Under the pieces are notes generated by a model. It saw nothing but the letters and a program-made list of their open reading frames with translations, did not search any database and was not told the DNA's origin. This document shows, piece after piece, positions 1,507-51,943 of a stretch of DNA of 51,943 nucleotides. This DNA comes from a virus (taxonomy: Duplodnaviria; Caudoviricetes), in the IMG/VR virus record IMGVR_UViG_3300036798_000599, positions 1-51,943 of that record; one strand, 5' to 3'. How positions within the stretch are numbered: the first letter of the stretch is position 1; each line of letters begins with the position of its first letter. A program made the translations under genes and the position numbers.

Positions 1507-1671
1507 GATCGCCCGGTTCCGCGACAACCTCGCTTGCCGGTCGCCCGATTGCGATTGGCGCGAGGACGAGACGGGAGCGGTGCACTGCCGGGTCTGCGGT
1601 TCGGGCTATCGGGCAGACATGCGCGATCTCCTGCGGCGCCTTTATACGTCAACCTCTCAAGAGGCTGTCCC

Positions 1672-2060: not shown

Positions 2061-2197
2061 AATCAAAATCTTCCACCCGCTCCGACACCGCCCAGGACCG
2101 CGCCATCGTCACCCGCGGCGTCCACCAGCACGAAGCCAACCTACACAAGGGCAAAGCCAAAACCAAACTCAAGCTCGGCGGCAAGAAAGGTAAGTGA
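2057..2197 (+). CDS. Small basic protein (46 aa)
   Basis: ATGA overlap at 2057; Lys/His-rich. Confidence 0.6.
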   Translation: MKSKSSTRSDTAQDRAIVTRGVHQHEANLHKGKAKTKLKLGGKKGK

Positions 2198-2206
2198 CCC
2201 AGCGCC

Positions 2207-3335: not shown

Positions 3336-3336
3336 C

Positions 3337-4128: not shown

Positions 4129-4448
4129 TCACCATCTCCCTCACCCTCATCGACAAAACCCGAACCAAAGAACGCCCCGACAAATGGACCGCAACCACCA
4201 CCACCGACGGCAAATCCTTCTCCGCCACCTCCCGAATGAACCCCTGCTCCGACCTCGCCAGAGCCCTCGTCGCCGCCAATATCCCAGACCAACCCGTCCA
4301 ACTCTGGAACGACAACCTCAACCACTGGGCCCTCCGTTGGAAATCCCTCCACGCCATGGCACAATGGATGATCATCGATCCCCCCTCCTCCTACCTCCAC
4401 CGCGTCAAATACAAACCCCCACCCGAAAACTGGGCCAAAACCGAATAA
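4125..4448 (+). CDS. Hypothetical protein (107 aa)
   Basis: ATGA-coupled to the initiator; strongly G-poor codons. Confidence 0.6.
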   Translation: MITISLTLIDKTRTKERPDKWTATTTTDGKSFSATSRMNPCSDLARALVAANIPDQPVQLWNDNLNHWALRWKSLHAMAQWMIIDPPSSYLHRVKYKPPPENWAKTE

Positions 4449-4918
4449 CCATCCCACCCTTTTTGCAAACACCCTACCCTCCGACCTACCCCATTACCCA
4501 CAAAACCAATCCAGCGCCAAAATACCCCCAATGCCTACCTGCAAAACAGATGCAACCTTCGGGCGAAAAAGATGAGAGCTCATAAAATTTGCGAGGGGGT
4601 AGTCGATAAGAGCGCCCACCCCCATCGGCGGCGGCCGGGTGGCACGGGTGGGCCGCGGTGATCGGAACAGCACGACCATCCCGATCCTACACCAAATGAT
4701 GGGCTGAAGTATGGGTCAGCCGATCTGCCACCATACAACACCATTGATATTGCTCGCATAATTGCGTGATGATGGCGGACACCACATCCGCCGCACTGCC
4801 GAGAACATACCGAGAATTGTGGCGGAAATGCTCGATATGCGCGTGAGTGAGAGCATCGATCGGCTCGATTGGTTTTAGTGAATACGGATCACCGGCCGGT
4901 CATGCTGCATTTTTCTGA

Positions 4919-6734: not shown

Positions 6735-8597
6735 TCAAGCAGCCTTTGCCTCGAGCGCCGCGACCCGTGCGCTGAGTTCCTTCACCGCGTTAATCAGTGG
6801 CCAGATGAGGGCGGTTGGCTGCAGGGTGGCGATAGCGACGGTCTCGCCGTCGATCACCCCTTCGCGCGTTCCGGTGGCTTCGGGCAGGATGGCGGCGACG
6901 GCATCGGCGAGCAGGCCGTAGTGCCGCACGCCGTCGTCGGCGTAGTGCTCGACCTCGCCGTTCCATTGCCAGCTGACGGGGTCGAGTAACTCAACCTCGG
7001 CCAAGCCGGCTGTGTAGGGCTGGACATCGCGCTTTAGCCGGCTGTCGGATATATCGGCAAACCAGGCAAAGTCGCCGACATAGGTACTATCGATATAACC
7101 CGAGACGTGGCTGGCGCGCCGGTTGTTCCACGACATACCGATAGCGTTGGTTGAACCGAGCGCGGTGTACTGGACGCCGCTGCCGGCGATGGAGGCATTG
7201 CCGACAACACTCAGGTTATTCTGCCCCGGATCAGCGCCGGTGCCGATGATGACACCTTGCCTGATCTGCATCCGGGTGCCGGTCGTCGTCGACCCTGGCG
7301 TCGTTGTCACGACGTTGATGAGAGTGCCTTGCGCGGTATCGCTCCAAGCCTCGGCGGCGGCCACCAAGAGGGCCGTAGCCGCCGCGCCGTAGGTCGTGGC
7401 GCCGCGCCCGATGGTCTGCAGGGCGGCGATGACATCGCCTGACAGCAGGGCGCTGGGCGACGCCGGCGTGCCGCGCGACTTGCGGCCGATGAGGTTGGCA
7501 AAGGGTGCTGTGCCGTAGGCGTCGATCAGACAGACCGCGTTGGCACTGTCGGCGGCGAGCCACAGTTGCGGCGTGACGCTGACGGCCTGCGGTGTGGTCG
7601 CCGCGGCGTTGACCACCAAACTGTTCGCCGGCGGCGCGGTGACGGCGGTGCCGATGACCTGGTTGGTCGAGACCCTGAGCGTGGTGCCGTTGTCGCTGGT
7701 GATGGCAGACGAGGTGATCGCACTGGTGCCGTTGCCGACGAGCACAGCGTTGGCGGTGAGGGTCGTCTGCCCGGTGCCGCCGTTGGCGGTGAGCACCGGA
7801 ACCGAGAGCGCCATCGTGCCGGTCGTGGTGATGGTGCCGCCCGTGAGGCCCGTCCCGGCGACAAGGCTCGTCACGCCACTGCTCGTCACATAGCCTTGAT
7901 TGACGGCGGCGGTGACCAAGCCTTTAGCGTTGACGGTGATCCCCTGGAAGGTGCCGACATTGGCGTTGACGGTTGCCAGGGTTGTGGCGAGGCCAACACT
8001 GGTAACGTCTCCGGTGTGGTTGCCGACGCTGTTCGCCGTGACCAGCCCCTTGGCATTGGTGGTCAAGCTGGCATGGGCTGTGGCCCCCGGTGAGGCGTTG
8101 ACGGTTGGCAGGGTCGTGGTGATTGCCGTGGTGCCGGAACCGCTGACATCCCCGGACAGGGTGATGGTCTGGTTCCCGGTCAGATAGCTTTGGTTGACAG
8201 CGGCGGTGGCTTGGCCCTGAGCGTTGAAGGTGATGCCCTGGTAGGTGCCCGCGACGACGGCGGTGTTGGCGAGCGCAATGGTGCCCGTCGTCGTGATCGT
8301 GCCGCCGGAGAGGCCCGTCCCGGCGGTGATGCTGGTAACGCCGCCGCCGCCGCCCGTGCCGTAGCCCTGCGCCTTGACCCAAGCCGTCGTCGCGATCGCC
8401 GTTGAGTTGTCGGCGGTCGCCGGGGTGGTCGCGGTGGACCCGTCGAGCGCGGTGGTGCCGGCGACGGTCAATCCTCCGGTAATGGTGAGGTTGCCGTGAA
8501 TGGTGCCGCCGCTGGTGGAGAGGGTGCTGTCGTGGAGGAGGCCGATGCGGCGGTAGTTGCCGGCGGCGAGGCCCCAGTTTGAGTTGGTGTCGGGCAT
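6735..8597 (-). CDS. Tail fibre with C-terminal intramolecular chaperone (peptidase S74)
   Basis: Thr/Gly-rich repeats (VTSITAGTGLSGGTITTTGT x2); C-terminal SDSRLKRDV...GLLAD...LINAVKELSARVAALE. Confidence 0.88.
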   Translation of the reverse strand: MPDTNSNWGLAAGNYRRIGLLHDSTLSTSGGTIHGNLTITGGLTVAGTTALDGSTATTPATADNSTAIATTAWVKAQGYGTGGGGGVTSITAGTGLSGGTITTTGTIALANTAVVAGTYQGITFNAQGQATAAVNQSYLTGNQTITLSGDVSGSGTTAITTTLPTVNASPGATAHASLTTNAKGLVTANSVGNHTGDVTSVGLATTLATVNANVGTFQGITVNAKGLVTAAVNQGYVTSSGVTSLVAGTGLTGGTITTTGTMALSVPVLTANGGTGQTTLTANAVLVGNGTSAITSSAITSDNGTTLRVSTNQVIGTAVTAPPANSLVVNAAATTPQAVSVTPQLWLAADSANAVCLIDAYGTAPFANLIGRKSRGTPASPSALLSGDVIAALQTIGRGATTYGAAATALLVAAAEAWSDTAQGTLINVVTTTPGSTTTGTRMQIRQGVIIGTGADPGQNNLSVVGNASIAGSGVQYTALGSTNAIGMSWNNRRASHVSGYIDSTYVGDFAWFADISDSRLKRDVQPYTAGLAEVELLDPVSWQWNGEVEHYADDGVRHYGLLADAVAAILPEATGTREGVIDGETVAIATLQPTALIWPLINAVKELSARVAALEAKAA

Positions 8598-8818
8598 CAG
8601 GGGGCGACCTTTAGGGTCATTTCAAGGCAGCGATCAAACAGTTGTTTGGCCATGGCATCGCGCTGTTCCAGCTGGTCCTCGAGAAACCACATGAGGAACC
8701 CGATAAAGGCGACATTGATCAGCACCAGCAGCAGGAAGGCGGGGGGCAGCGTGGTGATCAGCGATTTGCCGAGGCTCGCGACCGCGCCGGGGATGGTGGG
8801 GTTGCCGTTGTCAGCCAT
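8597..8818 (-). CDS. Small single-TM protein (holin-like candidate)
   Basis: 73 aa with TM segment AFLLLVLINVAFIGFLMWFL. Confidence 0.5.
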   Translation of the reverse strand: MADNGNPTIPGAVASLGKSLITTLPPAFLLLVLINVAFIGFLMWFLEDQLEQRDAMAKQLFDRCLEMTLKVAP

Positions 8819-9521
8819 CCCATCGGTCGTCGCGGTTGGTGGCGCGCACCGCGCGCAGGGTCTCGCGGAAGGACGCCGCGTCGCGGCGGTAGCCCTCGGC
8901 GATCGCGGATGGCGGCCAGGACCACATCCCGGGCCAGTCGGGCGGCCAGGCAAACACATCGGCCGTATCGAGCCACCAGCGCGAAGCACACGGCCATGCG
9001 CCGCGCGCGACCAGCACCACGCGCCGTTCGGTATTGACTAAATCCACCAGCATCGCCCGTTTCATCCCCAGCTGTTCGCCGGCGTTGCGGATTTGGGCGC
9101 GGGCGTTCTCGACTTGAGCGATGGCCTTCAACGCCCGAAATTCGAGCGCTTCGGAGACGGTCGGTTCGGCGATGACGACGTTGAGGAACTGGTAGGAGCT
9201 GGCGGCGACGGTGTCGGGGTCGGTGCCGGCCAGCGCCCCGGGGGCGAGTTCGTAGCCGAGGATGATTTCGGCGGCATCGAGGCGGCGGAAGAGCGGGGCG
9301 TCGTTGTCGGCCATGATGCTGCGCAAGCGGCGGAGCGAGGCGGATCCGGTCGCGGGGGCCTCGACTTGGGCGGCGAGCCGGTCGGCTTCGATCCGGTCCC
9401 AATTGGCTTTGGTGCGGTTATTGGCGTTGTTCGGGTTTTCGTGCCACGCCTTTGATTTCGCCGCGCGGCGTTCGAGGGTTGCTTTTGACGGCGTTACATT
9501 TCTGACCGGAAGAATGGGCAT
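8811..9521 (-). CDS. Hypothetical helical-repeat protein, possible small-terminase-like; candidate target family of the pentamer arrays
   Basis: Two related helical segments (LRSIMADNDAPLFRRLDAAEIIL / FLNVVIAEPTVSEALEFRALKAI) and a Trp/Pro-rich C-terminus; divergent from terL. Confidence 0.55.
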   Translation of the reverse strand: MPILPVRNVTPSKATLERRAAKSKAWHENPNNANNRTKANWDRIEADRLAAQVEAPATGSASLRRLRSIMADNDAPLFRRLDAAEIILGYELAPGALAGTDPDTVAASSYQFLNVVIAEPTVSEALEFRALKAIAQVENARAQIRNAGEQLGMKRAMLVDLVNTERRVVLVARGAWPCASRWWLDTADVFAWPPDWPGMWSWPPSAIAEGYRRDAASFRETLRAVRATNRDDRWDG

Positions 9522-9730
9522 TGCCAACCCATTGATAGTAAACGCCTGATACTACATCTATTGCGCACTCTACCATATCTTGTGCGTATTATGCGCCCAT
9601 CTTCTAACCGGGATGGGGGTAATCATGGGTCCGGATCCGCAACCGGAGACGCCAGGCACATCGGAACCGGCGCCGGAAAGCGACGACGCGCCGGCCGACG
9701 ATGGCACCACCGACACCGAGGGCGACGAGG

Positions 9731-41389: not shown

Positions 41390-41607
41390 GAGCGCTCCTG
41401 TCGCTGGATGTATTCAACAAGGTCGGCCGGGCGGTAGCGCCGGCGCGTCCCGATCAAGACGTATTTGAGGCGGCCTTCGTCGCGCTCGCGGCGCAGCACC
41501 GCCTTGGTCACACCGAGCAGGCGCTGCGTCTCCGACTCGTGGATCAGCAGACGCCCGTGGGCGACTTCCTTCAGCCGCTCAGCGGTCAGTTCGTCGATCG
41601 CGGTCAT
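41236..41607 (-). CDS. xis: Excisionase-like HTH protein
   Basis: ET..LLGV....LRR....G.L.YV.IG.RRRY...DL..YI; overlaps the int start. Confidence 0.75.
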   Translation of the reverse strand: MTAIDELTAERLKEVAHGRLLIHESETQRLLGVTKAVLRRERDEGRLKYVLIGTRRRYRPADLVEYIQRQERSCASHSSSGAPGRRTGFLTSRSTVVDFATALRKNPVPRRKRSRCASTPKKS

Positions 41608-41968
41608 GGGGGATGTCCGAAAGGAGAAGCTTCAACTCGACCAGCGCTGCGGCGTGACCCGCCAAGGCCTCGGCCCGCGTCGCATACCGCTGCCCATTCC
41701 AATCTGTCTCGAGCGAGCCGTAGTCACCGAAGACCATCGTCTCGTAGAGGATCGGCGGGCCTTCGCCGAACATGCTGGCAAAGCCGTGGTCGAGGGCGAG
41801 AAAGACGGTTGAGACCCAATGCCCGTCATCAAGGCGATCGAGGGCAACGTGGCGCTCAGCGGTCTGATACCAGCGCGCCCACCGATAGAGGTCCGGTTCC
41901 GGCACCGGGTTGCCCGCAGCGTCGAGAATGTATCTCCCCAGGACATTCTCTGGATCCGGGTTTTTCAT
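41579..41968 (-). CDS. Hypothetical phage protein flanked by ~37-bp direct repeats
   Basis: VSTVFL.LDH...P.LYETMVFG...RY.T..EA..GH motif. Confidence 0.7.
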   Translation of the reverse strand: MKNPDPENVLGRYILDAAGNPVPEPDLYRWARWYQTAERHVALDRLDDGHWVSTVFLALDHGFASMFGEGPPILYETMVFGDYGSLETDWNGQRYATRAEALAGHAAALVELKLLLSDIPHDRDRRTDR

Positions 41969-42183
41969 CGCTCAAGCCTCCCGCTGCGGTCAGTTCGTCG
42001 ATCGCGGTCATGGGGGGTGTCCTGCAATCGCGCGCGCAATCGCTCACGCAGAATCCATATTTCACGGCTGATGTGCTCAAAATCCGGGCCGAGATCCGCA
42101 TCGACGACGACGGCCGCGAAGCCCATGGCGGTCAATGCCCAGGTGAGGTTGGTGGCGGCCACAGTGATATCATTCCTGGTCAT
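41965..42183 (-). CDS. Hypothetical protein
   Basis: Coupled ORF, GGAG RBS. Confidence 0.5.
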   Translation of the reverse strand: MTRNDITVAATNLTWALTAMGFAAVVVDADLGPDFEHISREIWILRERLRARLQDTPHDRDRRTDRSGRLER

Positions 42184-42416
42184 GCCGTCTCCCTTTCCGG
42201 GAACACCACGCCCTTGCCGAATACCCACATGAAGCAGGTGTTGTCGTCGGCGTCGACGATGATCACCCGCCGCGTCGTGCCCATCCGCGCCCCGAGGCTC
42301 TCGGTCAGCCGCTTCGCCGCGTTCACCGCCGTCTCGGCATCGACGTGGTCGAGGTCGAGCATCGAGGTCTCGTCGGGGAAGAAGGCGTAGACCGAGAAGA
42401 GTTCATCGTCAGCCAT
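42180..42416 (-). CDS. Hypothetical phage protein
   Basis: FSVY.FFPD...RVII.D.DD.T.F.W..GKG..FP. Confidence 0.65.
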   Translation of the reverse strand: MADDELFSVYAFFPDETSMLDLDHVDAETAVNAAKRLTESLGARMGTTRRVIIVDADDNTCFMWVFGKGVVFPERETA

Positions 42417-42601
42417 CAGTCGTCGCCAAACAGAAGGGGTTCCCCAACGTGGGTCTTGAACCAACGCACCAGGTCATGCCCCGCGCGGTCGACCTCCATT
42501 GCTTTGCGAAAAGCTTCCTGCGCGAGCGCGCTCCAATTGAGGTCCTTGCGCCGTTGCATCGCCTCAAACAGATCTGGCGGCACATAAATACTGATCCTCA
42601 T
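42416..42601 (-). CDS. Ribbon-helix-helix protein (CcdA/MetJ-Arc-like)
   Basis: MRISIYVPPDL......LNWSALAQEAFRKA. Confidence 0.7.
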   Translation of the reverse strand: MRISIYVPPDLFEAMQRRKDLNWSALAQEAFRKAMEVDRAGHDLVRWFKTHVGEPLLFGDD

Positions 42602-42618
42602 CTGGATGCCCTGTTGAG

Positions 42619-42987
42619 ACGTTGCGCTGCGGGGCGGAGCCGGGAGCGGCGATGCGGTGCGAGGCGGAGCGAAGCGGGGAGCAGCGAAGCGATGCGATAC
42701 GTAGCGATGCGATGCGGAGGAAATAGAAGAGAAGGAGAGAAACGTTGCGTTGCGACGAGGAGTGCTGCGGGGAGCCGAGGGGCGAGGCGGCGCGGCGCGG
42801 GGCGGCGAGGAGCGCCGCGGAGCGGAGACGTTGCGTTGCGTTGCGAGGAGGCGTGGAGCGGAGAGTTGCGGGACAGCGCGATGCGAGGTGCTGCGCTGAG
42901 TTGCGTTGCGAAACGAGGCGTTGCGCGGCGCTGTGCTGAGGCGCGAAGAGGTGCGGAGCGAAGCGCGGCGCGGAGGCGCGGAGCGGT
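42619..42987 (-). ncRNA. Pentamer array block A (tracts A1 42619-42718, A2 42742-42826, A3 42828-42987); putative guide RNAs
   Basis: 20, 17 and 32 in-phase (G[CAT]G-NN) pentamers on +; each starts with ACGTTGCG. RNA status is inferred. Confidence 0.7.
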
Positions 42988-42990
42988 GAA

Positions 42991-43512
42991 CTAGGCATTT
43001 TTATTCCGCCGCGGGCTTAGGGTGATCATCCATTCGACGGCATTGAAAGAGGGCAGATCGTTCGAGGTGCCGCGAGCCACTTTCTCGATACGCCGGGTTG
43101 TTGCTTTGCTGAGGGCATCGCGGGCCAGTTCGCGAATAATCGAACTGACCGCGAATTTGGCCTGCTGCCGGATGTCCAACAGATCGAGATCGACGACGTC
43201 CGCCTGCCTGGCCCCATTGCGCAATTTGTTTGTCGCGCCGAGCAGATACCAATTCCTTTGCCGATCGGCGATTTCGGGATCATTCAACCGGACAACCCCG
43301 ACCTTCGGCTGGATACAACTCCATACGGCGTTGTGGTCGCGCTCGAGGATCTTGCGAGCGTAATGCAAGATATGACTTTCACTGGTGATGCGCGCGCTGA
43401 CGGCGTCCGACAGTTCCTTGTAAGTAAGGCGCGTGCCCTTATCGAAGGCCGCGAGATACCGGACCAGTGAAGCTGTCAGTTCCGAGCGTTCGAACTTCGG
43501 CATTTGGGTCAT
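42991..43512 (-). CDS. Winged-helix-like accessory protein embedded between arrays
   Basis: GTRLTYKELSDAV...HILHYARKILERDH...GVVRL wHTH-like N-terminus; helical C-terminus. Confidence 0.6.
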   Translation of the reverse strand: MTQMPKFERSELTASLVRYLAAFDKGTRLTYKELSDAVSARITSESHILHYARKILERDHNAVWSCIQPKVGVVRLNDPEIADRQRNWYLLGATNKLRNGARQADVVDLDLLDIRQQAKFAVSSIIRELARDALSKATTRRIEKVARGTSNDLPSFNAVEWMITLSPRRNKNA

Positions 43513-43526
43513 GTCCCCTGATCAAG

Positions 43527-43727
43527 ACGTTGCGTTGCGGCGAGGAGCGGTGCGCGGCGTGACGCTGCGACGGGATGCGGCGAGGAGCGGCGAGATGCGA
43601 GGAGCTGTGCCGCGAAGTGTCGCGTGGTGCTGCGGCGCGAGGCGACGCGTGGCGCCGAGCCGACGTTGCGTTGCGAGGAGTTGTGCGGTGATGAGACGCG
43701 CGGCGGTGTGGGGCGATGCGTAGTGTT
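43527..43727 (-). ncRNA. Pentamer array block B (B1 43527-43661, B2 43663-43727); putative guide RNAs
   Basis: 27 and 13 in-phase pentamers with the ACGTTGCGTTGCG boundary motif. Confidence 0.7.
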
Positions 43728-43731
43728 GTCT

Positions 43732-44319
43732 TCACAAGGTGAGGTCCGTCCATTCAAATTTCGTCGCGCGGAACCGGCCGTTCTTACCGCCTTTTTCGGC
43801 GCGGTAGCGACCGACGCCGACGATCATCCCGGCGGCCTTCACGTGGTCCTCGAAGATCTCCGGCGTGATGATGTCGTCGACGATCGTGAACTCCGCGACC
43901 CCGGCCCATTTTGCGAACTCCGGGAACCGCCGTTTCACGCGCTTGCCGGAACCGCGAACGCCATCGGCATTCGCATTGATCGCAATTATCTTGGAGTCTT
44001 CTTTGGTCAAAGCCTTGCCGTTCGCGATCGGCATATCCTCGTTGCAGAAGAACCCGGACGCGAAAAAGTTCTTGTACGTTGCGCCGCGACGGTTCGGCAC
44101 TTTCATGCCGAGTTTATAGGCTGCGGTGTCGATGCACTGCTTGAGTCCCATTGCCGGGATGCACACCTGCCCCTCCTCGTTCGTCGTGCATTTTTCCCGG
44201 CACGTCCGAATATCGTAATCGTCATGGCCTTCGCGATCGAGCATCGCCGTCTCGTGTTGGGCAGACTGGCTGTAGGGCGATCCTGGAATGCTCTCAAGAT
44301 GAACGCGGCATAGACGCAT
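43732..44319 (-). CDS. RAMP/Cas7-like RNA-binding protein
   Basis: N-terminal strand + SP; GQVCIPAMGLKQCI (cf. RAMP IPGSSLKG helix); C-terminal Gly-rich loop GVGRYRAEKGGKNGRF; GGAGG RBS; no other cas genes. Confidence 0.72.
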   Translation of the reverse strand: MRLCRVHLESIPGSPYSQSAQHETAMLDREGHDDYDIRTCREKCTTNEEGQVCIPAMGLKQCIDTAAYKLGMKVPNRRGATYKNFFASGFFCNEDMPIANGKALTKEDSKIIAINANADGVRGSGKRVKRRFPEFAKWAGVAEFTIVDDIITPEIFEDHVKAAGMIVGVGRYRAEKGGKNGRFRATKFEWTDLTL

Positions 44320-44342
44320 GGGCTTACCCTCCCTTCAATGAA

Positions 44343-44538
44343 ACGTTGCGTTGCGTAGAGCGGAGACGCGGGGCAATGCGACGCGCGGCGTCGAGCCGCG
44401 TTGCGTGGCGAAGCGATGAGTAGAGAGGCGACGCGCGGCGGGGTGCGGCGGCGTGAAGCGATGCGGGACGACGAGATGACGTTGCGTTGCGTTGTGTTGC
44501 GGTGCGGTGCGGAGCGCTGTGTTGTGCTGCGGCGCGAG
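44343..44538 (-). ncRNA. Pentamer array block C (C1 44343-44477, C2 44479-44538); putative guide RNAs
   Basis: 27 and 12 in-phase pentamers with the ACGTTGCGTTGCG boundary motif. Confidence 0.7.
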
Positions 44539-44556
44539 GCAGAATCTCGATGATCA

Positions 44557-44760
44557 TCAGTCGTCCTCCCCGCGTCGCCGATTGGCGTGCATTTTTATGA
44601 CCTGCGCCCCCATCCGCTCCAATTGCCGCAGCACCTCCTCGGCGACGCGGTGGGCGATATAGCTGGGGTCGAGGGGCCGGTTGTCCTGGCCCACCCGGCG
44701 CAAGGCCTCGGCCACCTCCTCCTCGATCAGCCGGCGCAACAGGTCGGTCTCGTCGGTCAT
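44557..44760 (-). CDS. Hypothetical protein
   Basis: Coupled helical ORF immediately upstream of array C. Confidence 0.6.
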   Translation of the reverse strand: MTDETDLLRRLIEEEVAEALRRVGQDNRPLDPSYIAHRVAEEVLRQLERMGAQVIKMHANRRRGEDD

Positions 44761-44981
44761 GCTTCCTCGTCATCCTCGAGAAAATCGCTGACGTCGCGAA
44801 ACAGCTTCATCGCCCCCATCGCGAGCCCGCCCAACGCCTCGTTGCTCCAGGTCGTGTGCCACCGATCATCAATGCGGACGACGCACATGACAGCCTCGAC
44901 ACCCTCGCGCTCAAGGATCCGGTGCAGCACCACACGCCACGGCAGCTTGTCCGGGTCGAGCAGCAGGATCTTCTCAGCCAT
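44757..44981 (-). CDS. Hypothetical protein
   Basis: Coupled ORF. Confidence 0.55.
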   Translation of the reverse strand: MAEKILLLDPDKLPWRVVLHRILEREGVEAVMCVVRIDDRWHTTWSNEALGGLAMGAMKLFRDVSDFLEDDEEA

Positions 44982-45152
44982 CCTACTCGGCCGCCAGCCG
45001 GGGCCGCCGCGGTCCGCGTTGGCGCGGCTCCTTGTAGAGGACAGCGAGCGCCCGCCGCATTGCCTCGAGCCAGACCTCGCGCTCCTTCTCGGACCACGAC
45101 GTCCCGGGCTTGGGCAGCCGCCCGACCAGCGCCTCGATGACCGGGTTCTCTG

Positions 45153-45362
45153 TCATTTCTGTCCTTTCGCTGGCCAGGGATCGGGCATGGCGATCTCGTG
45201 AACACGTCCCTCGGGCAAATAGCGGTTGGCACGCGCCATGATGTCCAGGGCTTCCCCTTTATCGTAGCGACCGGCGGCCAGTAGGCTGGTGACGTAGCCC
45301 TGCCATCCCGGGCCCCACCACGCGCCGGGTCCCTCGCTCCAGACGACCCACTTCTCGCTCAT
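45153..45362 (-). CDS. Hypothetical phage protein
   Basis: VWS...AWW.P...GY......AGRY...EA..I. Confidence 0.6.
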   Translation of the reverse strand: MSEKWVVWSEGPGAWWGPGWQGYVTSLLAAGRYDKGEALDIMARANRYLPEGRVHEIAMPDPWPAKGQK

Positions 45363-45547
45363 CGCCGCCCCTTCTTCGCCGGCACCACCTTCTCGCCCTT
45401 GTGCAGCTTGTAGGTGCCCGTCTTCGGCACGCGACCGCCCTTCTTAAAGCTGCCGATCGCGCCCGCCGTATCCGCCGGGACTCCCTGGCTCTCCATAAAG
45501 GCCTGCTGGGCGGATTTGGCGGGTACGGTTTTCTTGCGGGTAGCCAT
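45359..45547 (-). CDS. Small basic protein with FKKGG.V...LHKGE.V motif
   Basis: 62 aa, Lys-rich. Confidence 0.6.
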   Translation of the reverse strand: MATRKKTVPAKSAQQAFMESQGVPADTAGAIGSFKKGGRVPKTGTYKLHKGEKVVPAKKGRR

Positions 45548-45550
45548 CAG

Positions 45551-45796
45551 TCACTTCTCCAATTGCTCGAGGATCATCCGCTCGTTGACGGGGATCAGCG
45601 CTCTGACCGTCTCAAGCCAGAGCGACAACTCGGCCTCGCGATAGTCGGCGGGTTGATGCCCGGCCAGCCACATCGCCACGAGATCGGCGAGGATCCCGCC
45701 CTGGATATCCGGCCCCAGACCGGCCAGCAGGGGCCGGATCTGCGCAGCCCGTTCGACAATCTCGACGGCCTTGGCGCCGGCGCTGCGGGTGGCCAT
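45551..45796 (-). CDS. Hypothetical protein
   Basis: GGAG RBS; I.PLLAG..P.IQG..LADL.A.WLAGH. Confidence 0.6.
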   Translation of the reverse strand: MATRSAGAKAVEIVERAAQIRPLLAGLGPDIQGGILADLVAMWLAGHQPADYREAELSLWLETVRALIPVNERMILEQLEK

Positions 45797-45933
45797 CAGT
45801 GTTTCTCCGGGAGCAGGGCCTGAATCATCCCGCCGGGCGGGCGATGGCGGTAACGCTCGTAGAGCACGGCGATGGCAATGCCGATGACGAGGCCGATCAC
45901 CGTGCCGAGGAAGAAGGACGCGACCTCGATCAC
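45796..45933 (-). CDS. Small TM protein
   Basis: GTG start overlapping the upstream stop; FFLGTVIGLVIGIAIAVLY. Confidence 0.45.
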   Translation of the reverse strand: MIEVASFFLGTVIGLVIGIAIAVLYERYRHRPPGGMIQALLPEKH

Positions 45934-46067
45934 AGCACACCCGCCAGGAAGAGCGCGCCGAGCAGCAGCAGCATCCACAGCACCAGCGACAACGGGGCGC
46001 CGCGGCACATCCCGGCAAAGAAGGATTTCCGGAGGGTCAGGTCGTCGTTTCCGGCTGCTTCGGCCAT
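45930..46067 (-). CDS. Small TM protein, first gene of the leftward early operon
   Basis: GGAG RBS; hydrophobic C-terminal half. Confidence 0.5.
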   Translation of the reverse strand: MAEAAGNDDLTLRKSFFAGMCRGAPLSLVLWMLLLLGALFLAGVL

Positions 46068-46095
46068 GGCGGCTCTCCGCCGAGGGGGAGAGCTG

Positions 46096-46147
46096 ACGAT
46101 GCTGGACATCCCGTCCACTGTCAAAACAAAAAATGGACAGGCCGTCC
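46096..46147 (-). promoter_or_regulatory. PL-like promoter with two GGAC-N5-GTCC operators
   Basis: Minus-strand TTGACA (46124-46119), 17 nt, CATCGT (46101-46096); operators at 46104-46116 and 46135-46147. Confidence 0.75.
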
Positions 46148-46249
46148 GGTGACGCGTAAAAATTGCAATCCCCAATTTGTTTCTGCGACAGTGTGCCGCT
46201 TATCGCCGAGCAACGCGCCGATCCTTCGGAACCCCCACCGGAGAAGCAG

Positions 46250-46441
46250 ATGCCCCAAAAACCGCATCAGTTAATGACGCGCATGCAATACATCGAGGCC
46301 CTTGTGGGCGAGGCGCTGGCTTTTAATCGGGGGGTTGGCAAAACCCGGAAGGTCCGGGCGGCGTTGCTGGTGTCGGCGCTCCGCGAACTTCAGCAGGGAG
46401 AGCGGGAGGTGGCAGAAATCAGTCAGGACCGACGAGAATAA
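46250..46441 (+). CDS. Small protein convergent with the repressor
   Basis: GGAG RBS, ATG 46250; 3' overlap with the repressor gene. Confidence 0.45.
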   Translation: MPQKPHQLMTRMQYIEALVGEALAFNRGVGKTRKVRAALLVSALRELQQGEREVAEISQDRRE

Positions 46442-46643
46442 ACTCGATCGATTTGTTCACCAGCTTGGAAAATTTTGGCAGATACTCGGGGGGCAGCTTG
46501 CCGCGCTGCTCCCATTTTTGATAGCGGGTCAGGGCCACATCCAAGAGTTCCGCCATCACGCGCTGTGACCAGCCTCGTTCCTTGCGCAACTCCTTTATTC
46601 GCATCGAGACGCCCTTGTTAGGTGGCGAGACCTTACTGGCCAC
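46419..46643 (-). CDS. CI-like XRE repressor (HTH only; start uncertain)
   Basis: RIKELRKERGWSQRVMAELLDV...YQKWEQRG; divergent from the cro-like gene. Confidence 0.8.
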   Translation of the reverse strand: MASKVSPPNKGVSMRIKELRKERGWSQRVMAELLDVALTRYQKWEQRGKLPPEYLPKFSKLVNKSIEFILVGPD

Positions 46644-47029: not shown

Positions 47030-47464
47030 ATGACCGCGCGTTTCCGCCTCACCGCCCCGGCGCCCTCGGAGCGCGACATCCACGCCAGCTGCGCCCGCGC
47101 CCTCGACCTGCTCCTGCAGCCCCCGGCGCTGTGGTGGACCTACCCCGCCGGCGCCGCGCAACTCTCCCCCCAGCAGCAGGCGGCCTATTCGCGCATCGGT
47201 TTGAAGCGCGGCCTGCCCGACATCATGATCCTCCACGGCGGGCTCTACGGGATCGAACTCAAACGCCGCGGCGGCCGGGTCTCCAAGACAAAGATCGTCC
47301 ATACCCGGCGCGGCACGCCCCGCGAGCTCCTCGGCCAGGAGGACATGTTCCCGCGCCTCATCGCCGCCGGAATGAAAGAGATCGCCATCGCCCACAGCGT
47401 CGACGAGGTGCTCGGCCATCTCACCCGCTGGGGCGTGCCACTCCGCGGGAGGGTCGCGGCATGA
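47030..47464 (+). CDS. VRR-NUC-family nuclease (Holliday junction resolvase-like)
   Basis: SERDIH...GLKRGLPDI...IELKRRGGRVS...Q motif. Confidence 0.8.
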   Translation: MTARFRLTAPAPSERDIHASCARALDLLLQPPALWWTYPAGAAQLSPQQQAAYSRIGLKRGLPDIMILHGGLYGIELKRRGGRVSKTKIVHTRRGTPRELLGQEDMFPRLIAAGMKEIAIAHSVDEVLGHLTRWGVPLRGRVAA

Positions 47465-48321
47465 CCAAAATGCTCTGTATCTGGCACGGCAATTGTCAGG
47501 ACGGGTTTGGCGCCGCCTGGGCGGTGCATCATGCCCTTGGTGAAGAGGCCGTCGAGTTCTACCCCGGCGTCTACCAGAACCCGGCGCCGGATGTGACGGG
47601 ACGCCATGTGCTCTTTGTCGACTTCAGCTACAAGCGGCCGGTGATCGAGGAGATGGCGAAGACCGCTCGGTCGATCACGATCTTGGACCACCACGCCAGC
47701 GCCGCCGACGACTTGGCCGGATACCCGCCGCCCGGCTTCAACTACCCGCCGTTCGGGCCCGTCGCCAAGGTCACGGCCCTCTTTGACATGGAGCGCTCGG
47801 GCGCCGGCCTCACCTGGGATTTCCTCCACCCCAACCAGCCACGCCCGCTGTTGATCGACCACATCGAGGACCGCGACTTGTGGCGGTTCAAGCTGCCTTA
47901 CACGCGCGAGATTTCGGCGGCGCTATTTTCCTACCCCTACGATTTTGCGGTGTGGGACAGGCTGATGGACGACAGCTCGCACCTGGTCAGCGAAGGCGAA
48001 GCAATCGAGCGCAAGCAGGCGCAGGACATTCGCAACCTCCTCCCCGTCGTGCAGCGCCGCATGACGATCGGCGGGATCGACATGCCCGTCGCCAACCTGC
48101 CAATGACCCTGACCTCCGACGCCGGCCACAAGATGGCGGCGGCGGAAACCGGCGGCGTGGCCGCGTGCTACTGGGACACACCCCAAGGTCGGGTGTTCTC
48201 GCTGCGGTCGACCGAGCTCGGTCCCGATTGCCAGGCGATCGCCGTCCAATACGGCGGCGGCGGTCACCTCCACGCGGCCGGCTTCCGCATGCCGATCGGC
48301 TGGGAGGGTGAGGCGGCATGA
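47461..48321 (+). CDS. DHH/DHHA1 phosphoesterase (repeat copy)
   Basis: Identical translation to 416-1276. Confidence 0.9.
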   Translation: MTKMLCIWHGNCQDGFGAAWAVHHALGEEAVEFYPGVYQNPAPDVTGRHVLFVDFSYKRPVIEEMAKTARSITILDHHASAADDLAGYPPPGFNYPPFGPVAKVTALFDMERSGAGLTWDFLHPNQPRPLLIDHIEDRDLWRFKLPYTREISAALFSYPYDFAVWDRLMDDSSHLVSEGEAIERKQAQDIRNLLPVVQRRMTIGGIDMPVANLPMTLTSDAGHKMAAAETGGVAACYWDTPQGRVFSLRSTELGPDCQAIAVQYGGGGHLHAAGFRMPIGWEGEAA

Positions 48322-49251
48322 GCATCCCCTTCCGCCGCCTCGCCGAACTCACCGAGACCCCCGAGGACTACGGCATCGTCACCGTCCTCCTGCGCGCGGT
48401 GGTGATGTACCCCGAGGTCGCCGCCGAACTGTGCGGCCGCAACATCAAGACCTACGCCGATCGCGGCCAGGCCGTCACCGACGCCGTACGCCTGATCGAC
48501 GGCGACACTTCACCCCTGACCAACGGAGCTAGCGATGCTCTCCAAGTGTGAGATCGCCCGGTTCCGCGACAACCTCGCTTGCCGGTCGCCCGATTGCGAT
48601 TGGCGCGAGGACGAGACGGGAGCGGTGCACTGCCGGGTCTGCGGTTCGGGCTATCGGGCAGACATGCGCGATCTCCTGCGGCGCCTTTATACGTCAACCT
48701 CTCAAGAGGCTGTCCCATGTCAAGCAAATCACCCGCGCAAGCCCGGCTCATGGCCGCCAGCGCACACAACCCCGCCTTCGCCAAGAAGGCCGGCGTGCCG
48801 GTGAAGGTCGCGAAGGAGTTCAACCAAAGTGACGCCAAGACCGGCATCCTGCGGAAGAAGAAAGGCAGGTGACCATGAACGTAGCCGATTGCGAAGCGCT
48901 GCGGCGCGAATTGAAGCCGATCGCCGAGAAGCTCTGGGAACTGCGCCGGCCGCCGATGGGCGGTCTTGGCGAACCCGCCGAGGCCTATGCCAACGTGACG
49001 ATCGCCTACCGAAAGCTCGAGGACGCCTCGATGCGGCTCGGCAAGGCGATCCAGGCGCTCGACGGCGGAATTTCGGTCTACGACAAGACCCAGGTGACAT
49101 CATGAAATCAAAATCTTCCACCCGCTCCGACACCGCCCAGGACCGCGCCATCGTCACCCGCGGCGTCCACCAGCACGAAGCCAACCTACACAAGGGCAAA
49201 GCCAAAACCAAACTCAAGCTCGGCGGCAAGAAAGGTAAGTGACCCAGCGCC

Positions 49252-49935
49252 ATGTCCGCGCCGCTCGACCACGACCAATTGCCAGCTATCGCCAGTGCTC
49301 CGCTGCCGGCGACATACGAAGCTGCGAGGCGCGCACTAGAGCAATGCTATCAACTCGATGAATGTCTAATGTGGGCTAACAAGGCCGAGGCGCTCGCTTC
49401 CTATGCACGGCAATCGCATGATGACGCGCTGCGGCGGATGGCCGATCGCATCCAAGCTCGCGCGATCCGGCGATGCGGCGAACTCCTACAGCAGATCGAA
49501 CCGGCGAAGACCGGACCAAAACCGGAATTAAAGGACGGGGCCGTCCCGCAATTAGGTCGTACTGAAGCCGCAGATGATGCCGGTCTATCCGAACGCCAGC
49601 GTAAGACCGCGCTTCGCGTTGCTAACATTCCGGAAGCCGAATTTGAGACTGCTATCGAAAGTGACAAACCGCCGACCGTCAGCAGCCTCGCCGAACGCGG
49701 GACCGTAAAACGTCCGGTTCCGGATTACCTGAACGGGCGCGATCCGGACGATTTCAAACGGGCGACGCATCTCATCGGTCTCGGTACTTACATCACGGGA
49801 CATATTGCTGAAATCGATCTCGTCGCCGCTCGCCGCGGTCTCGATGCCGCTGAGCGCGAGCAGGTCATTACGACGTTCGGCCAGTGCATCGACTGGCTAA
49901 CCGCAGCACGGAGGTTTGTGATCGATGGCTTATAG
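49252..49935 (+). CDS. Hypothetical protein (repeat copy of 2207-2890)
   Basis: Identical translation. Confidence 0.7.
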   Translation: MSAPLDHDQLPAIASAPLPATYEAARRALEQCYQLDECLMWANKAEALASYARQSHDDALRRMADRIQARAIRRCGELLQQIEPAKTGPKPELKDGAVPQLGRTEAADDAGLSERQRKTALRVANIPEAEFETAIESDKPPTVSSLAERGTVKRPVPDYLNGRDPDDFKRATHLIGLGTYITGHIAEIDLVAARRGLDAAEREQVITTFGQCIDWLTAARRFVIDGL

Positions 49936-50380
49936 CCCAGGTGATCTTCGTCGCGAAATTCATCGCTGCATTGAGACGCTCCTCGTCGCCGGTCAAACGG
50001 TGAAATGGAAATGGCTCGTGACAGACGTACTCAATCGCCATCCGCTGCCACTTATTCCCGACCTTGACTTTAACGTCATATGCCGACGCCTGGCGGTGAC
50101 CGACGCTGCTCGCGATGTTCTACGCGACCTGAAACTCGATGCCGACGATCCAGCCAAGGCTTCCGGTTCGGGCACGATGCCGTTACCCGGTTTCCAACAT
50201 TTGCAAGTCGCCTATCCGGTCGAACGCGACAATGAACTGGTCATCGTCCCGATCGACAAAATGACCGACGCCGAGCGGCTAGGGCGTGCTCTGCAGTATC
50301 GGGCAATGGCTCGCGGCTGCATTGCCCATGCCGAAGAACTTGAACGCTACAGGGGCGATCTCGAGCACAAAGCAGGGTGA
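49925..50380 (+). CDS. Hypothetical protein (repeat copy of 2880-3335)
   Basis: Identical translation. Confidence 0.7.
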   Translation: MAYSPGDLRREIHRCIETLLVAGQTVKWKWLVTDVLNRHPLPLIPDLDFNVICRRLAVTDAARDVLRDLKLDADDPAKASGSGTMPLPGFQHLQVAYPVERDNELVIVPIDKMTDAERLGRALQYRAMARGCIAHAEELERYRGDLEHKAG

Positions 50381-50381
50381 C

Positions 50382-51173
50382 ATGCCCGCGCCTCTCGTCC
50401 CGCCCGACACCGTCATCCCCCGCCTGCCGTGGGTCCCGGTCTATGCCGCTCGATTGTTCGAGAGTGATTTCTTCGCCGTCGCCACCGACGCCGAGTTCCG
50501 CGCCGCTATCTGCCTCTGGCTCAAGTCATGGAACCAGAAACCCCCCGGCTCCCTGCCAAACAATGATCGCGTGCTCTGCCGGCTCGCAGGGTTGGCCGAC
50601 GACATCGATCAGTGGCGCAGCGTCAAGCGGGTCGCCATGCGCCATTGGAAACGCTGCGACGACGGCCGCCTCTACCATCCCGTCGTCGCAGAGCTCGTCA
50701 TGGATGCCGCAAATCGATTGTCAACCGCGCGTAACAGAACTGCGGCAGCGACCGCAGCTCGTTGGAAAACAACAAAAGATGAAATCCGTAACGGTATCCG
50801 TAACGGACGTAACCTTGACAGGGAGAGGGATAGTCCGCCTTCTACAAAGGCGGACCCTCTCCCCCCTTACCCCCCTCCCCACGGGAAGGGGGGGTCGCTC
50901 CCGCCCTCCAGCTCGCTCAATGAGCGAGGGCGGTTCGCGACGGATCGGCAAGCCACCGAACAGCACGAACTCTACGCCGCCATCAACCAAATGCGCTTCG
51001 ACCGCGGCGACGCCTCCCGCGCCGGCAAACTCTCCGCATGGGACGCCGAATACGGCGCAAAACTCGACGCCGCCTGCAAACGGCTGGCCCAACTGCAAGA
51101 CGAGGAACGCGGCCACCCCGATGAGGAAACCTTCACGCCCCTCGCCACCATCGTCGCCACTCTCCGCTCATGA
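50382..51173 (+). CDS. DUF1376 replication protein (repeat copy)
   Basis: Identical translation to 3337-4128. Confidence 0.8.
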   Translation: MPAPLVPPDTVIPRLPWVPVYAARLFESDFFAVATDAEFRAAICLWLKSWNQKPPGSLPNNDRVLCRLAGLADDIDQWRSVKRVAMRHWKRCDDGRLYHPVVAELVMDAANRLSTARNRTAAATAARWKTTKDEIRNGIRNGRNLDRERDSPPSTKADPLPPYPPPHGKGGSLPPSSSLNERGRFATDRQATEQHELYAAINQMRFDRGDASRAGKLSAWDAEYGAKLDAACKRLAQLQDEERGHPDEETFTPLATIVATLRS

Positions 51174-51493
51174 TCACCATCTCCCTCACCCTCATCGACA
51201 AAACCCGAACCAAAGAACGCCCCGACAAATGGACCGCAACCACCACCACCGACGGCAAATCCTTCTCCGCCACCTCCCGAATGAACCCCTGCTCCGACCT
51301 CGCCAGAGCCCTCGTCGCCGCCAATATCCCAGACCAACCCGTCCAACTCTGGAACGACAACCTCAACCACTGGGCCCTCCGTTGGAAATCCCTCCACGCC
51401 ATGGCACAATGGATGATCATCGATCCCCCCTCCTCCTACCTCCACCGCGTCAAATACAAACCCCCACCCGAAAACTGGGCCAAAACCGAATAA
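51170..51493 (+). CDS. Hypothetical protein (repeat copy of 4125-4448)
   Basis: Identical translation. Confidence 0.6.
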   Translation: MITISLTLIDKTRTKERPDKWTATTTTDGKSFSATSRMNPCSDLARALVAANIPDQPVQLWNDNLNHWALRWKSLHAMAQWMIIDPPSSYLHRVKYKPPPENWAKTE

Positions 51494-51943
51494 CCATCCC
51501 ACCCTTTTTGCAAACACCCTACCCTCCGACCTACCCCATTACCCACAAAACCAATCCAGCGCCAAAATACCCCCAATGCCTACCTGCAAAACAGATGCAA
51601 CCTTCGGGCGAAAAAGATGAGAGCTCATAAAATTTGCGAGGGGCTAGTCGATGAGAACGACCACCCCCATCGGCGGCGGCCGGGGTGGCAGGGGTGGGCC
51701 GTGGCGATCGGAGATGAAGGAGGGTCGCGAACAGCTCGATCAGTCACTGAATGATGGGTACAAGTATGGGACAGCCGATCTGCCACCACCAATACCATTG
51801 ATATTGCTTGTACAATCAGCTGAGTTAGGCGGATACCACATCCGCCGCACTGCCGAGAACATACCGAGAATTGTGGCGGAAATGCTCGATATGCGCGTGA
51901 GTGAGAGCATCGATCGGCTCGATTGGTTTTAGTGAATACGGAT

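What the first reader, a model, noticed from the sequence alone, without database searches (positions are those of the whole stretch)
42742..43661. Variable dinucleotides decode, as codon positions 1-2, to peptides resembling one gene in this genome (8811-9521)
Seen by hand, taking the + strand NN series as NNx codons. A2 (GA CT GG CC GG AG GC GC GG GC GA CC GA) is compatible with ELGPGSAAGADPD vs ELAPGALAGTDPD at 9251-9213 (9/13 dinucleotides exact). The distal part of A3 (TT CG CT CT GC AA GT GA AA CG CG GC GA GT) gives LRLLAKVENRRAEV vs LKAIAQVENARAQI at 9131-9090 (7/14 exact). B1 gives ADVRWLTIADAISLPNSWLAR-TWPP vs ASRWWLDTADVFAWPPDWPGMWSWPP at 8987-8910 (10/25 exact with one codon gap; all three rare TG units land on Trp). 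Proximal A3 is weaker (SAEELGAMRLL vs AGEQLGMKRAM). Inference: the guides read targets 2 nt on, 1 nt skipped, so they ignore wobble positions. They would be directed at diverged homologs of this gene in competing relatives, with mismatches sparing self. No single match is significant alone, and ambiguous codons were resolved favourably. The signal is that several tracts converge on the same gene, strand and frame.
Basis: partly seen in the sequence, partly recalled or inferred. Interest (0 to 1): 0.93.

Follow-up and report, generated by a model that had tools for sequence, protein, structure and literature searches.

The report
Phage VIPR guide arrays targeting rivals
The five-base repeats are the guide-RNA arrays of a recently described phage weapon (VIPR), and three of the guides spell out, two bases on and one off, a gene carried by rival phages that resembles one of this phage's own genes.

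Summary
The window is a ~47 kb temperate phage. Three intergenic arrays (42622-42990, 43530-43725, 44346-44536) consist of strict 5-nt units, NN + GCG on the + strand (CGC+NN in the sense of the flanking genes). They flank a 195-aa protein that is a RAMP/Cas7-like fold and a sequence relative of the solved SUSP1 Vipr protein. This is a VIPR system, described in 2026 preprints: vrRNA dinucleotides pair with DNA two bases on, one skipped.

Within this genome they are not significant: 49% of shuffled guide sets converge as well. Against 13 homologs of the 8811-9527 protein the signal is strong:
- A2 decodes to 12/13 residues of one homolog.
- B1 decodes to 16/25 without a gap.
- Distal A3 decodes to 10/14.
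- Shuffles and a 2.5-million-residue decoy never reach these values.

At DNA level A2 matches 11/13 units in three metagenome contigs, and only with a 1-nt skip. Self matches stay below the published 0.8 threshold.

Verdict: observation confirmed and interpretation supported. The system is a member of a known, very recent kind, with a non-canonical CGC/NN unit. Expression and the true rival target remain unshown.

The parts
44482..44536 (-). vrRNA tract C2: 11 five-nt units (sense strand CNC+NN), ending in CGCAA repeats
   Evidence: Register parse. No target found.
44346..44480 (-). vrRNA tract C1: 27 units, ends with CGCAACGCAACG 26 nt before the vipr start codon
   Evidence: No target found.
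43732..44319 (-). vipr: 195-aa RAMP (Cas7-like) protein, the filament-forming guide-RNA binder
   Evidence: A profile of 86 homologs hits PDB 36pp_D 'SUSP1 Vipr protein' at E=2e-12. The AF2 model has pLDDT 97.5. Top Foldseek hits are type VII Cas7 and Csm3, E about 5e-7, prob 1.00. Of 63 array loci found by DNA pattern alone, 52 encode a homolog.
43666..43725 (-). vrRNA tract B2: 12 units
   Evidence: No target found.
43530..43664 (-). vrRNA tract B1: 27 units. Units 3-27 decode to ADVRWLTIADAISLPNSWLARTWPP-like codon positions 1-2
   Evidence: It matches 16/25 with P0280 and P0281 ungapped and 13/25 with P0282. None of 200 shuffles reach its score. The decoy maximum is 11/25 in 2.48 M residues.
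42991..43512 (-). vap-like accessory gene: 173 aa, N-terminal winged-helix-like domain (weak evidence)
   Evidence: Homologs lie between arrays in 13 IMG/VR loci. In the AF2 model residues 10-80 have pLDDT 83-93 with an H-E-H-H-E-E order. Foldseek hits are only weak (E >= 0.012) and are mostly MarR/GntR-type regulators.
It has its own TTGCG TTGCG cap, so it is probably a separate guide
   Evidence: Units 19-32 match 10/14 with P0282 by my count from the alignment; one search scores the core at 9/12. The decoy maximum is 9/14. The whole-tract shuffle test alone gives p=0.24.
42831..42900 (-). vrRNA tract A3-proximal: 14 units
   Evidence: No significant match.
42745..42829 (-). vrRNA tract A2: 17 units. 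Units 4-16 decode to [DE]LGPG[RS]AAGA[DE]P[DE]
   Evidence: It matches 12/13 with P0282 and 11/13 with P0286. At DNA level it matches 11/13 units in L140, L141 and L145, with base identity 24/30 = 0.80 over 15 units. Only skip 1 beats the shuffles, 0 of 100.
42622..42741 (-). vrRNA tract A1: 24 units, purine-rich and degenerate at its + strand 3' end
   Evidence: No target found.
42416..42601 (-). 61-aa ORF directly downstream of array A. I read it by eye as ribbon-helix-helix-like; no family hit
   Evidence: No homolog in 135 array loci, so it is probably not part of the system.
8811..9527 (-). The phage's own member of the targeted gene family (238 aa, function unknown). The 'shadow' sites are 9213-9251 (A2), 9090-9131 (A3-distal) and 8910-8987 (B1)
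   Evidence: Self matches are 9/13, 7/14 and 8/25 ungapped. For guides of 10 or more units the best base identity anywhere in the self genome is 0.70 or less.
6735..8597 (-). 620-aa tail-fibre-like gene, downstream of the family gene on the same strand with a 74-aa ORF between. It is the likely polar victim when the homologous operon of a rival is silenced (inference)
   Evidence: Peptidase_S74 chaperone domain, E=4.9e-14. ORF layout.

Best explanation
The region is a VIPR (Viral Interference Programmable Repeat) locus of a temperate soil phage.

Components:
- A Vipr RAMP protein at 43732-44319(-).
- A winged-helix-like accessory gene at 42991-43512(-).
- About eight guide tracts in three intergenic arrays.

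How it most likely works:
- The arrays are most likely transcribed with the genes, so the RNA units read C-G-C-N-N (inferred).
- Vipr protomers bind one unit each. They sequester the constant triplet and present the NN pairs (published for SUSP1; inferred here by homology).
- The NN series then pairs with DNA in an NNx register, so it reads codon positions 1-2 and ignores the wobble base.
- Guides A2, A3-distal and B1 are written against three separate conserved stretches of one gene family. The phage's own copy of that family is 8811-9527.
- The best matches are to a diverged subfamily (P0280-P0282, 50-56% identical to self). The intended target is therefore that gene in rival phages.
- Binding would block transcription of that gene and, by polarity, of the tail-fibre gene behind it (inferred).
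- The phage's own copy differs at enough guide-contacted codons, including a one-codon indel in the B1 site, to stay below the published 0.8 match threshold.
For: Shown here:
- The arrays have a strict 5-nt register in 7 tracts by the parse. A3 holds an internal TTGCG TTGCG cap, which makes about eight guides.
- Over 6002 units in 104 arrays from related phages, the constant positions are G 91%, C 80%, G 90%, and the NN positions are near-uniform.
- There is no codon-phase signal in the NN positions (summed chi-square p=0.60).
- Of 134 arrays near vipr homologs, 133 read CGCNN in the gene's sense.
- Of 63 array loci found by DNA pattern alone, 52 encode a Vipr homolog.
- The Vipr profile hits SUSP1 Vipr, PDB 36pp, at E=2e-12. 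The AF2 model has pLDDT 97.5 and a Cas7/Csm3 fold.
- In the G-loop alignment, SUSP1 D177-W178-R179 corresponds here to R-Y-R. The contact to the first G is replaced, while the aromatic and Arg contacts to G2 and Y3 are kept. This fits a C-G-C unit on the sense strand (with residue roles from 10.64898/2026.04.26.720927, Results read).

Targeting:
- A2 matches 12/13 on P0282. B1 matches 14/19 on P0280 and 16/25 on P0280 and P0281. None of 200 shuffles reach either score: the shuffle maximum is 6 against 11 and 9.
- A decoy set of 269 Vipr-family proteins gives only chance scores.
- A six-frame decoy of 2.48 M residues gives at most 11/25 for B1 and 9/14 for A3-distal. For A2 it gives 9/13, and that is the self site, apart from the two loci fetched with the A2 pattern itself.
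- At DNA level A2 matches 11/13 units in L140, L141 and L145. Skip 1 scores 9 against a shuffle maximum of 7 (0/100), while skips 0, 2 and 3 are at chance.
- A2 base identity is 0.80 on target against 0.70 for the best self site.

Published rule and biology.
Against: - No RNA data exist for this phage, so transcription, strand and processing of the tracts are inferred (one search listed no RNA holder).
- No sampled sequence matches a whole guide at 80% or more of units. A2 is 11/15 units without its cap (0.80 only at base level), B1 is 64% and A3-distal is 71%, the last two at amino-acid level only.
- I could not fetch DNA for P0280-P0282. Leu, Ser and Arg codon families are therefore unresolved in those matches.
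- Exact gapped-pattern scans of IMG/VR for B1 and A2 found nothing.
- The A2 pattern gave only two hits in 596 Gb of genomes, both outside the family and apparently chance.
- The gene family was chosen because it held the best self hits. That selection inflates the A2 result; B1 is less affected, because its self match was unremarkable.
- Four or five tracts (A1, A3-proximal, B2, C1, C2) have no identified target.
- The constant triplet is not the canonical GGY, and there is no long conserved 3' tail.
Confidence: 0.8

Rival explanations
1. The locus is a VIPR system, but the resemblance of A2, A3 and B1 to the 8811-9527 family is chance plus post-hoc selection. The real targets lie elsewhere.
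For: Within the genome, shuffled guides converge equally well (49% reach the observed value). No full-length match at 80% or more of units was found. Exact pattern scans were empty or gave chance hits.
Against: B1 reaches 16/25 ungapped in two homologs, against a maximum of 11/25 in 2.48 M decoy residues. A2 reaches 12/13, with none of 200 shuffles above score 6 against 11 observed. Three guides hit three different conserved blocks of the same proteins, in the same frame and strand. The DNA-level signal appears only at skip 1. The decoy family is at chance.
Confidence: 0.06
2. The guides act on the phage's own gene 8811-9527. On this reading VIPR autoregulates the tail-fibre operon through partial complementarity and is not a weapon.
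For: The best genome-wide hit of A2 and the second-best hit of distal A3 lie in that gene. It heads a run of ORFs ending in a tail-fibre-like gene.
Against: Self identity (69%, 50% and 32-40% of units) is lower than identity to diverged homologs and lies below the published functional threshold of 0.8. The B1 site needs a codon gap, which the rigid filament register described in the preprints does not allow. The published surveys found no self-targeting at 80% or more.
Confidence: 0.06
3. The period-5 arrays are not guides. They would be a structural or regulatory repeat: a binding platform for a ring or filament protein such as TRAP, a recombination zone for cassette exchange, or a cryptic coding repeat.
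For: I entertained these before the Vipr homology was found. The sense strand cannot contain stop codons, and the arrays flank gene cassettes.
Against: The associated protein is a Vipr homolog. There is no codon-phase signal. The NN content carries gene-specific information in NNx register, which a purely structural repeat would not carry.
Confidence: 0.03

Closest known systems
Type II VIPR of Escherichia phage SUSP1 and the Pseudomonas fulva prophage (bioRxiv 10.64898/2026.04.26.720920, .720927 and 10.64898/2026.10.15.759431; main-text sections read, supplements closed)
   Same: - A small RAMP protein (about 20 kDa) with a G-loop, flanked by pentanucleotide arrays with three constant and two hypervariable bases.
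- A second small gene with a predicted DNA-binding fold.
- Carried by a phage.
- Targets read in NNx register, with the skipped base on the wobble position.
- Targets lie in rival mobile elements.
- Self scores are lower than rival scores.
   Different: - The constant triplet is CGC (sense) rather than GGY.
- In the G-loop, Asp177 is replaced by Arg.
- Tracts are longer: median about 27 units between termini in relatives, and 11-27 per tract here, against 9-16 in SUSP1.
- Arrays in relatives reach 195 units.
- There is no conserved ~40-nt pseudoknot tail, only a CGCAACGCAACG cap.
- Tracts abut with a 1-nt register shift.
- The target is a homolog of one of the phage's own genes rather than a satellite recombinase or a cI/cro-type regulator.
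Other published VIPR variants: 'YNNNG/NNNNG' repeats and staggered arrays (720920, Methods and the legend of fig. S18), and non-canonical units GAC/NN, CAC/NN, WGT/NN, TGH/NN (bioRxiv 10.64898/2026.10.21.760802, passages read)
   Same: The scaffold triplet is non-GGY and a Vipr-like fold lies nearby. Read in the sense strand, the unit C-N-N-C-G fits the 'YNNNG' description. The abutting tracts with a 1-nt offset resemble the legend's 'staggered arrays'.
   Different: CGC/NN is not named in any text I could read: a search for 'CGC' and 'GCG' in 760802 gave 0 occurrences. Type logos and tables are in figures and supplements I could not see, so I cannot say whether this clade is already catalogued or which of types I-VII it belongs to.
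Class 1 CRISPR Cas7/Csm3 backbone filaments
   Same: The fold is shared (Foldseek E about 5e-7), with one protomer per repeat of guide and periodic interruption of the guide-target duplex.
   Different: There are no CRISPR repeats or spacers and no cas1/cas2. The period is 5 nt with 2 paired bases, not 6 nt with 5 paired. The system is carried by a phage.

Membership tests
VIPR system | Vipr protein: a minimal RAMP (RRM core, G-loop, thumb) related to characterised Vipr | tested here: met
   Profile against PDB 36pp_D SUSP1 Vipr, E=2e-12 over residues 23-183. AF2 pLDDT 97.5. Foldseek top hits are Cas7 and Csm3.
VIPR system | Tandem pentanucleotide repeats flanking vipr, with three conserved and two hypervariable positions | tested here: met
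   (6002 units: G 0.91, C 0.80, G 0.90; NN near-uniform). Arrays abut the gene, with a median gap of 11 nt downstream and 28 nt upstream.
VIPR system | Canonical GGY constant triplet | tested here: not met
   The triplet is CGC in the sense strand and GCG in the antisense strand. The preprints allow 'a related consensus' and list YNNNG/NNNNG and other triplets, so this bears on subtype, not on membership.
VIPR system | Targets obey the 1-nt skip rule, with the skip on the wobble base and 80% or more identity, and no such hit in self | tested here: met
   Met for A2 only. It matches 11/13 core units, with 24/30 = 0.80 informative bases over 15 units, in L140, L141 and L145, in the codon frame. 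Skips 0, 2 and 3 are at chance. The self maximum is 0.70 for guides of 10 or more units. B1 and A3-distal reach only 64% and 71%, at amino-acid level.
VIPR system | Two-gene locus with a vap accessory gene predicted to interact with DNA | tested here: inconclusive
   The 173-aa neighbour has a confident N-terminal H-E-H-H-E-E domain, but only weak fold matches to winged-helix regulators (E >= 0.012). It is present in 16 of 63 pattern-derived array loci.
VIPR system | vrRNAs are expressed, processed to discrete RNAs and bound by Vipr | not testable with these tools
   No run on record as RNA holds the locus. The predicted-complex tool does not take RNA.
VIPR type II (SUSP1 clade) | Conserved ~40-nt 3' tail with a pseudoknot after 9-16 repeats | tested here: not met
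   At 106 distinct tract termini nothing is conserved beyond CGCAACGCAACG. There is no Rfam match.
CRISPR-Cas | Array of 25-40-nt direct repeats with spacers, plus cas1/cas2 or an effector module | tested here: not met
   The repeat finders show only period-5 arrays. There are no PADLOC or NCBIfam hits for the neighbours.

The most novel reading that the evidence does not exclude
This clade may be a distinct, uncatalogued VIPR type.
- It has a CGC/NN scaffold, read by a G-loop in which the Asp that holds the first G in SUSP1 is replaced by Arg.
- It has cap-only, tail-less guides of about 25 units, with footprints of about 75 bp, packed head-to-tail with a 1-nt stagger into arrays of up to about 1 kb.
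- It is used for kin discrimination. The phage silences the tail-fibre operon of sibling phages by aiming at conserved codons of a gene it also carries. Its own copy has escaped through non-synonymous changes and a codon indel.
- One sibling that lacks VIPR shares a 93%-identical integrase region.
Probability: 0.3. Interest if true: 0.6.

Novelty: new member of a known kind. Interest (0 to 1): 0.5.

Why it matters
VIPR was described only in 2026, and experimentally only in enterobacterial and Pseudomonas phages. This locus matters in four ways:
- It shows the same two-on, one-off code at work in soil alphaproteobacterial phages with a different RNA scaffold (CGC instead of GGY). That gives a natural test of how the protein's G-loop sets scaffold specificity.
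- It gives a concrete case of self/non-self discrimination between homologous genes of sibling phages.
- It points to long, tail-less, abutting guides, whose processing is unknown.
- On method: partial self matches can be the shadow of real targeting of relatives. They become significant only when homologs are examined.

Tried and rejected
Alternative readings:
- I considered a TRAP-like or potexvirus-like 5-nt-per-subunit platform, Rho or standby sites, and switch-region-like recombination zones. I dropped them once the Vipr homology appeared.
- A coding repeat was rejected because there is no codon-phase bias.
- The Rfam scan of 41500-46500 gave 0 matches.
- The promoter and terminator scan found nothing beyond shuffle expectation.

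Annotation:
- Pfam, PHROGs, PADLOC and NCBIfam gave nothing for the neighbours or the target protein, except phrog_4652 (unknown function) for Vipr.
- The ESM Atlas gave only unnamed viral clusters.

Searches for relatives and targets:
- Cultured-phage collection: no DNA match and no tblastn match to Vipr.
- Guides against 1.1 Mb of related array loci: chance level (one search timed out).
- Guides against sibling contigs G001-G003 and L140, L141, L145: only A2 stands out.
- Guides against 269 Vipr proteins: chance.
- Exact gapped patterns: B1 core in IMG/VR, 0 hits. A2 core in IMG/VR, 0 hits. A2 core in genome contigs, 2 hits, neither in the family.
- Target family in genome contigs: none.
- Target family in IMG/VR: 1 and then 3 loci.
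- The Vipr search in contigs G001-G003 found nothing. L141 and L145 are not held, so they were not searched.

Closed or unavailable:
- No RNA holder was listed for the locus.

Full report
What is there. The assembly is the window itself: one contig of 51,943 nt whose first ~4.9 kb repeats at 47,046 onward. It is therefore a ~47 kb phage genome. It carries a large terminase (phrog_2, E=7e-40), an integrase (PF00589, E=6e-26) and a tail-fibre-like protein with a Peptidase_S74 chaperone domain. A period-5 scan finds only three strong regions: 42597-42997, 43500-43779 and 44304-44553.

Array anatomy. Parsed in register, the three regions give seven tracts (A1, A2, A3, B1, B2, C1, C2) of 11-32 units. 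On the + strand each unit is NN followed by G-[C>A,T]-G. Each tract opens with ACG TTGCG TTGCG, and successive tracts abut with a 1-nt register shift. A3 contains an internal TTGCG TTGCG cap and is probably two guides. All arrays sit between minus-strand genes: a 67-aa ORF, array C, a 195-aa gene, array B, a 173-aa gene, array A, and a 61-aa ORF.

The arrays recur and go with one protein.
- All 13 IMG/VR loci that encode a homolog of the 173-aa protein have period-5 arrays beside it, up to 124 units long.
- Of those 120, 63 have arrays of at least 20 units with NN entropy of at least 3 bits. Of those 63, 52 encode a homolog of the 195-aa protein within the fetched stretch, and 16 encode the 173-aa protein.
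- Of 134 arrays near that gene, 133 read CGCNN in the gene's sense.
- Over 6002 units the constant positions are G 0.91, C 0.80, G 0.90. The two N positions are close to uniform and less GC-rich than the genome.
- The N positions carry no codon-phase signal (122 tests, summed chi-square p=0.60), so the arrays are not coding.

Identity.
- The 195-aa protein has 879 relatives at E<=0.001 among 50%-identity cluster representatives, and no Pfam family.
- A profile of 86 of them hits one solved structure, 36pp chain D, 'SUSP1 Vipr protein', at E=2e-12.
- Its AlphaFold model (pLDDT 97.5) matches Cas7 and Csm3 backbone subunits (Foldseek E about 5e-7).

Published context (three preprints, main text read, supplements closed).
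- VIPR consists of a phage-borne minimal RAMP plus vrRNAs made of alternating GGY/NN pentamers.
- One protomer binds each repeat and hides the GGY.
- The NN pairs bind DNA with every third target base skipped, usually the wobble base.
- Natural targets are called at 80% or more match.
- No self hit reaches that threshold.
- Targets are rival phages and satellites.

How this locus differs.
- The constant triplet is CGC in the sense strand.
- I favour the sense strand as the RNA for three reasons. The orientation is consistent in 133 of 134 arrays. C-N-N-C-G fits the preprint's alternative 'YNNNG' class, whereas the antisense unit fits none of the listed classes. In the alignment to SUSP1 Vipr the G-loop D177-W178-R179 corresponds to R-Y-R here. 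According to the structure preprint, D177 contacts G1, W178 stacks on G2 and R179 holds Y3. So only the G1 contact is changed, as a C-G-C unit would predict. This is inference; no RNA data exist.
- The tracts lack a long conserved tail. At 106 termini nothing is conserved beyond CGCAACGCAACG.
- The tracts are longer than the 9-16 repeats of SUSP1.
- The 173-aa neighbour has a confident N-terminal H-E-H-H-E-E domain, with only weak fold matches to winged-helix regulators. That is compatible with a vap gene but not proven.

The numbers are right. The A2 hit at 9214-9251 is the best in the genome, and the distal-A3 hit is the second best. Even so, 300 shuffled guide sets give an equally good same-frame multi-tract convergence 49% of the time. 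On this genome alone I would have called it chance.

Homologs change the verdict. The 8811-9527 protein has 13 homologs in the large protein collection (alignment). I decoded each NN to the amino acids its codon family allows.
- A2 units 4-16 match P0282 at 12/13 (ELGPGAAAGADPE) and P0286 at 11/13.
- None of 200 shuffles exceeds score 6, against 11 for A2 and 9 for B1.
- Distal A3 matches P0282 at 10/14 by my count from the alignment (9/12 core). Its whole-tract shuffle test alone is not significant (p=0.24).
- Controls: 269 Vipr-family proteins give chance scores for all guides. In 2.48 million six-frame decoy residues the maxima are 11/25 for B1 and 9/14 for distal A3. For A2 the maximum is 9/13, which is the self site, apart from the two loci that were fetched with the A2 pattern itself.

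DNA-level evidence.
- A2 matches 11/13 units in the codon frame in three near-identical metagenome loci (L140, L141, L145) and 10/13 in a sibling phage (L137), against 9/13 in self.
- Across 13 family loci only the 1-nt skip beats the shuffles (score 9 against a maximum of 7, 0/100). Skips 0, 2 and 3 do not.
- By the base-level score of the October preprint, A2 reaches 0.80 on L140 and 0.70 at best in self. No guide of 10 or more units exceeds 0.70 in self.

Biology inferred.
- Three guides address three conserved blocks of one gene, all in codon register. They fit best a subfamily that is 50-56% identical to the phage's own copy.
- That gene heads a minus-strand run ending in the tail-fibre-like gene. 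A bound filament would plausibly block that operon in a rival.
- A sibling phage (G001) shares 18.6 kb with the window, including a 93%-identical integrase region. It shows no Vipr in its 38 kb, which is estimated 85% complete.
- Self is spared by non-synonymous differences and, at the B1 site, by a one-codon indel.
- The October preprint reports the same logic for SUSP1-family guides, with lower self scores than rival scores.

Limits.
- No expression data exist.
- DNA for P0280-P0282 could not be fetched.
- No whole-guide match at 80% or more of units was found.
- Exact pattern scans of IMG/VR were empty. The two genome hits to the A2 pattern are outside the family.
- Five tracts have no target.
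- The family was picked because of the self hits.
- The type (I-VII) cannot be assigned, because the defining figures and tables are not visible. CGC/NN is not named in the texts I read, but it may be in those figures.

Verdict. The thing is a member of a known, very new kind, with variant features.

Noticed in passing
window 1-4898 and 47046-51943: The two ends of the window are the same sequence: exact for 4598 nt, and the overlap region is 4898 nt. The record is a circularly permuted or over-assembled ~47 kb phage genome.
   Followed up: partly
L150+L151 (virus record G001, 38214 nt): This is a sibling phage: 18.6 kb aligns to the window at 77-93% identity, including the integrase region at 93%. 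It has no Vipr match. The stretch between its integrase and the window-start homology differs from the window's VIPR region.
   Followed up: partly
L003 2360-3824 (same contig as L019): In this relative the tracts are separated by a repeated AT-rich spacer (GAAATGCC-AT-AAATGAATCG on the GCG strand) instead of abutting directly. It could be a processing signal or an internal promoter.
   Followed up: no
L023, L035, L055, L061, L091, L094, L108, L123, L125, L131, L133: Eleven of 63 high-entropy array loci show no Vipr homolog in the fetched stretch. They may be contig truncations, or 'solo' vrRNA arrays of the kind reported for SUSP1-like phages.
   Followed up: no
window 42416-42601 (-): A 61-aa ORF lies directly after array A. 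It looks ribbon-helix-helix-like by eye, has no family hit, and is absent from the 135 related array loci.
   Followed up: partly
homolog list: Many contigs carrying Vipr homologs are only 1-2 kb long, and some gene calls are extended to 239-307 aa. The stop-free, repetitive arrays seem to break assemblies and to mislead gene callers.
   Followed up: no
L016, L029, L050, L060, L065, L066, L084, L127: The nine-unit GCGNN pattern also picked up low-entropy simple repeats (one or two NN types). These are not VIPR-like arrays.
   Followed up: no
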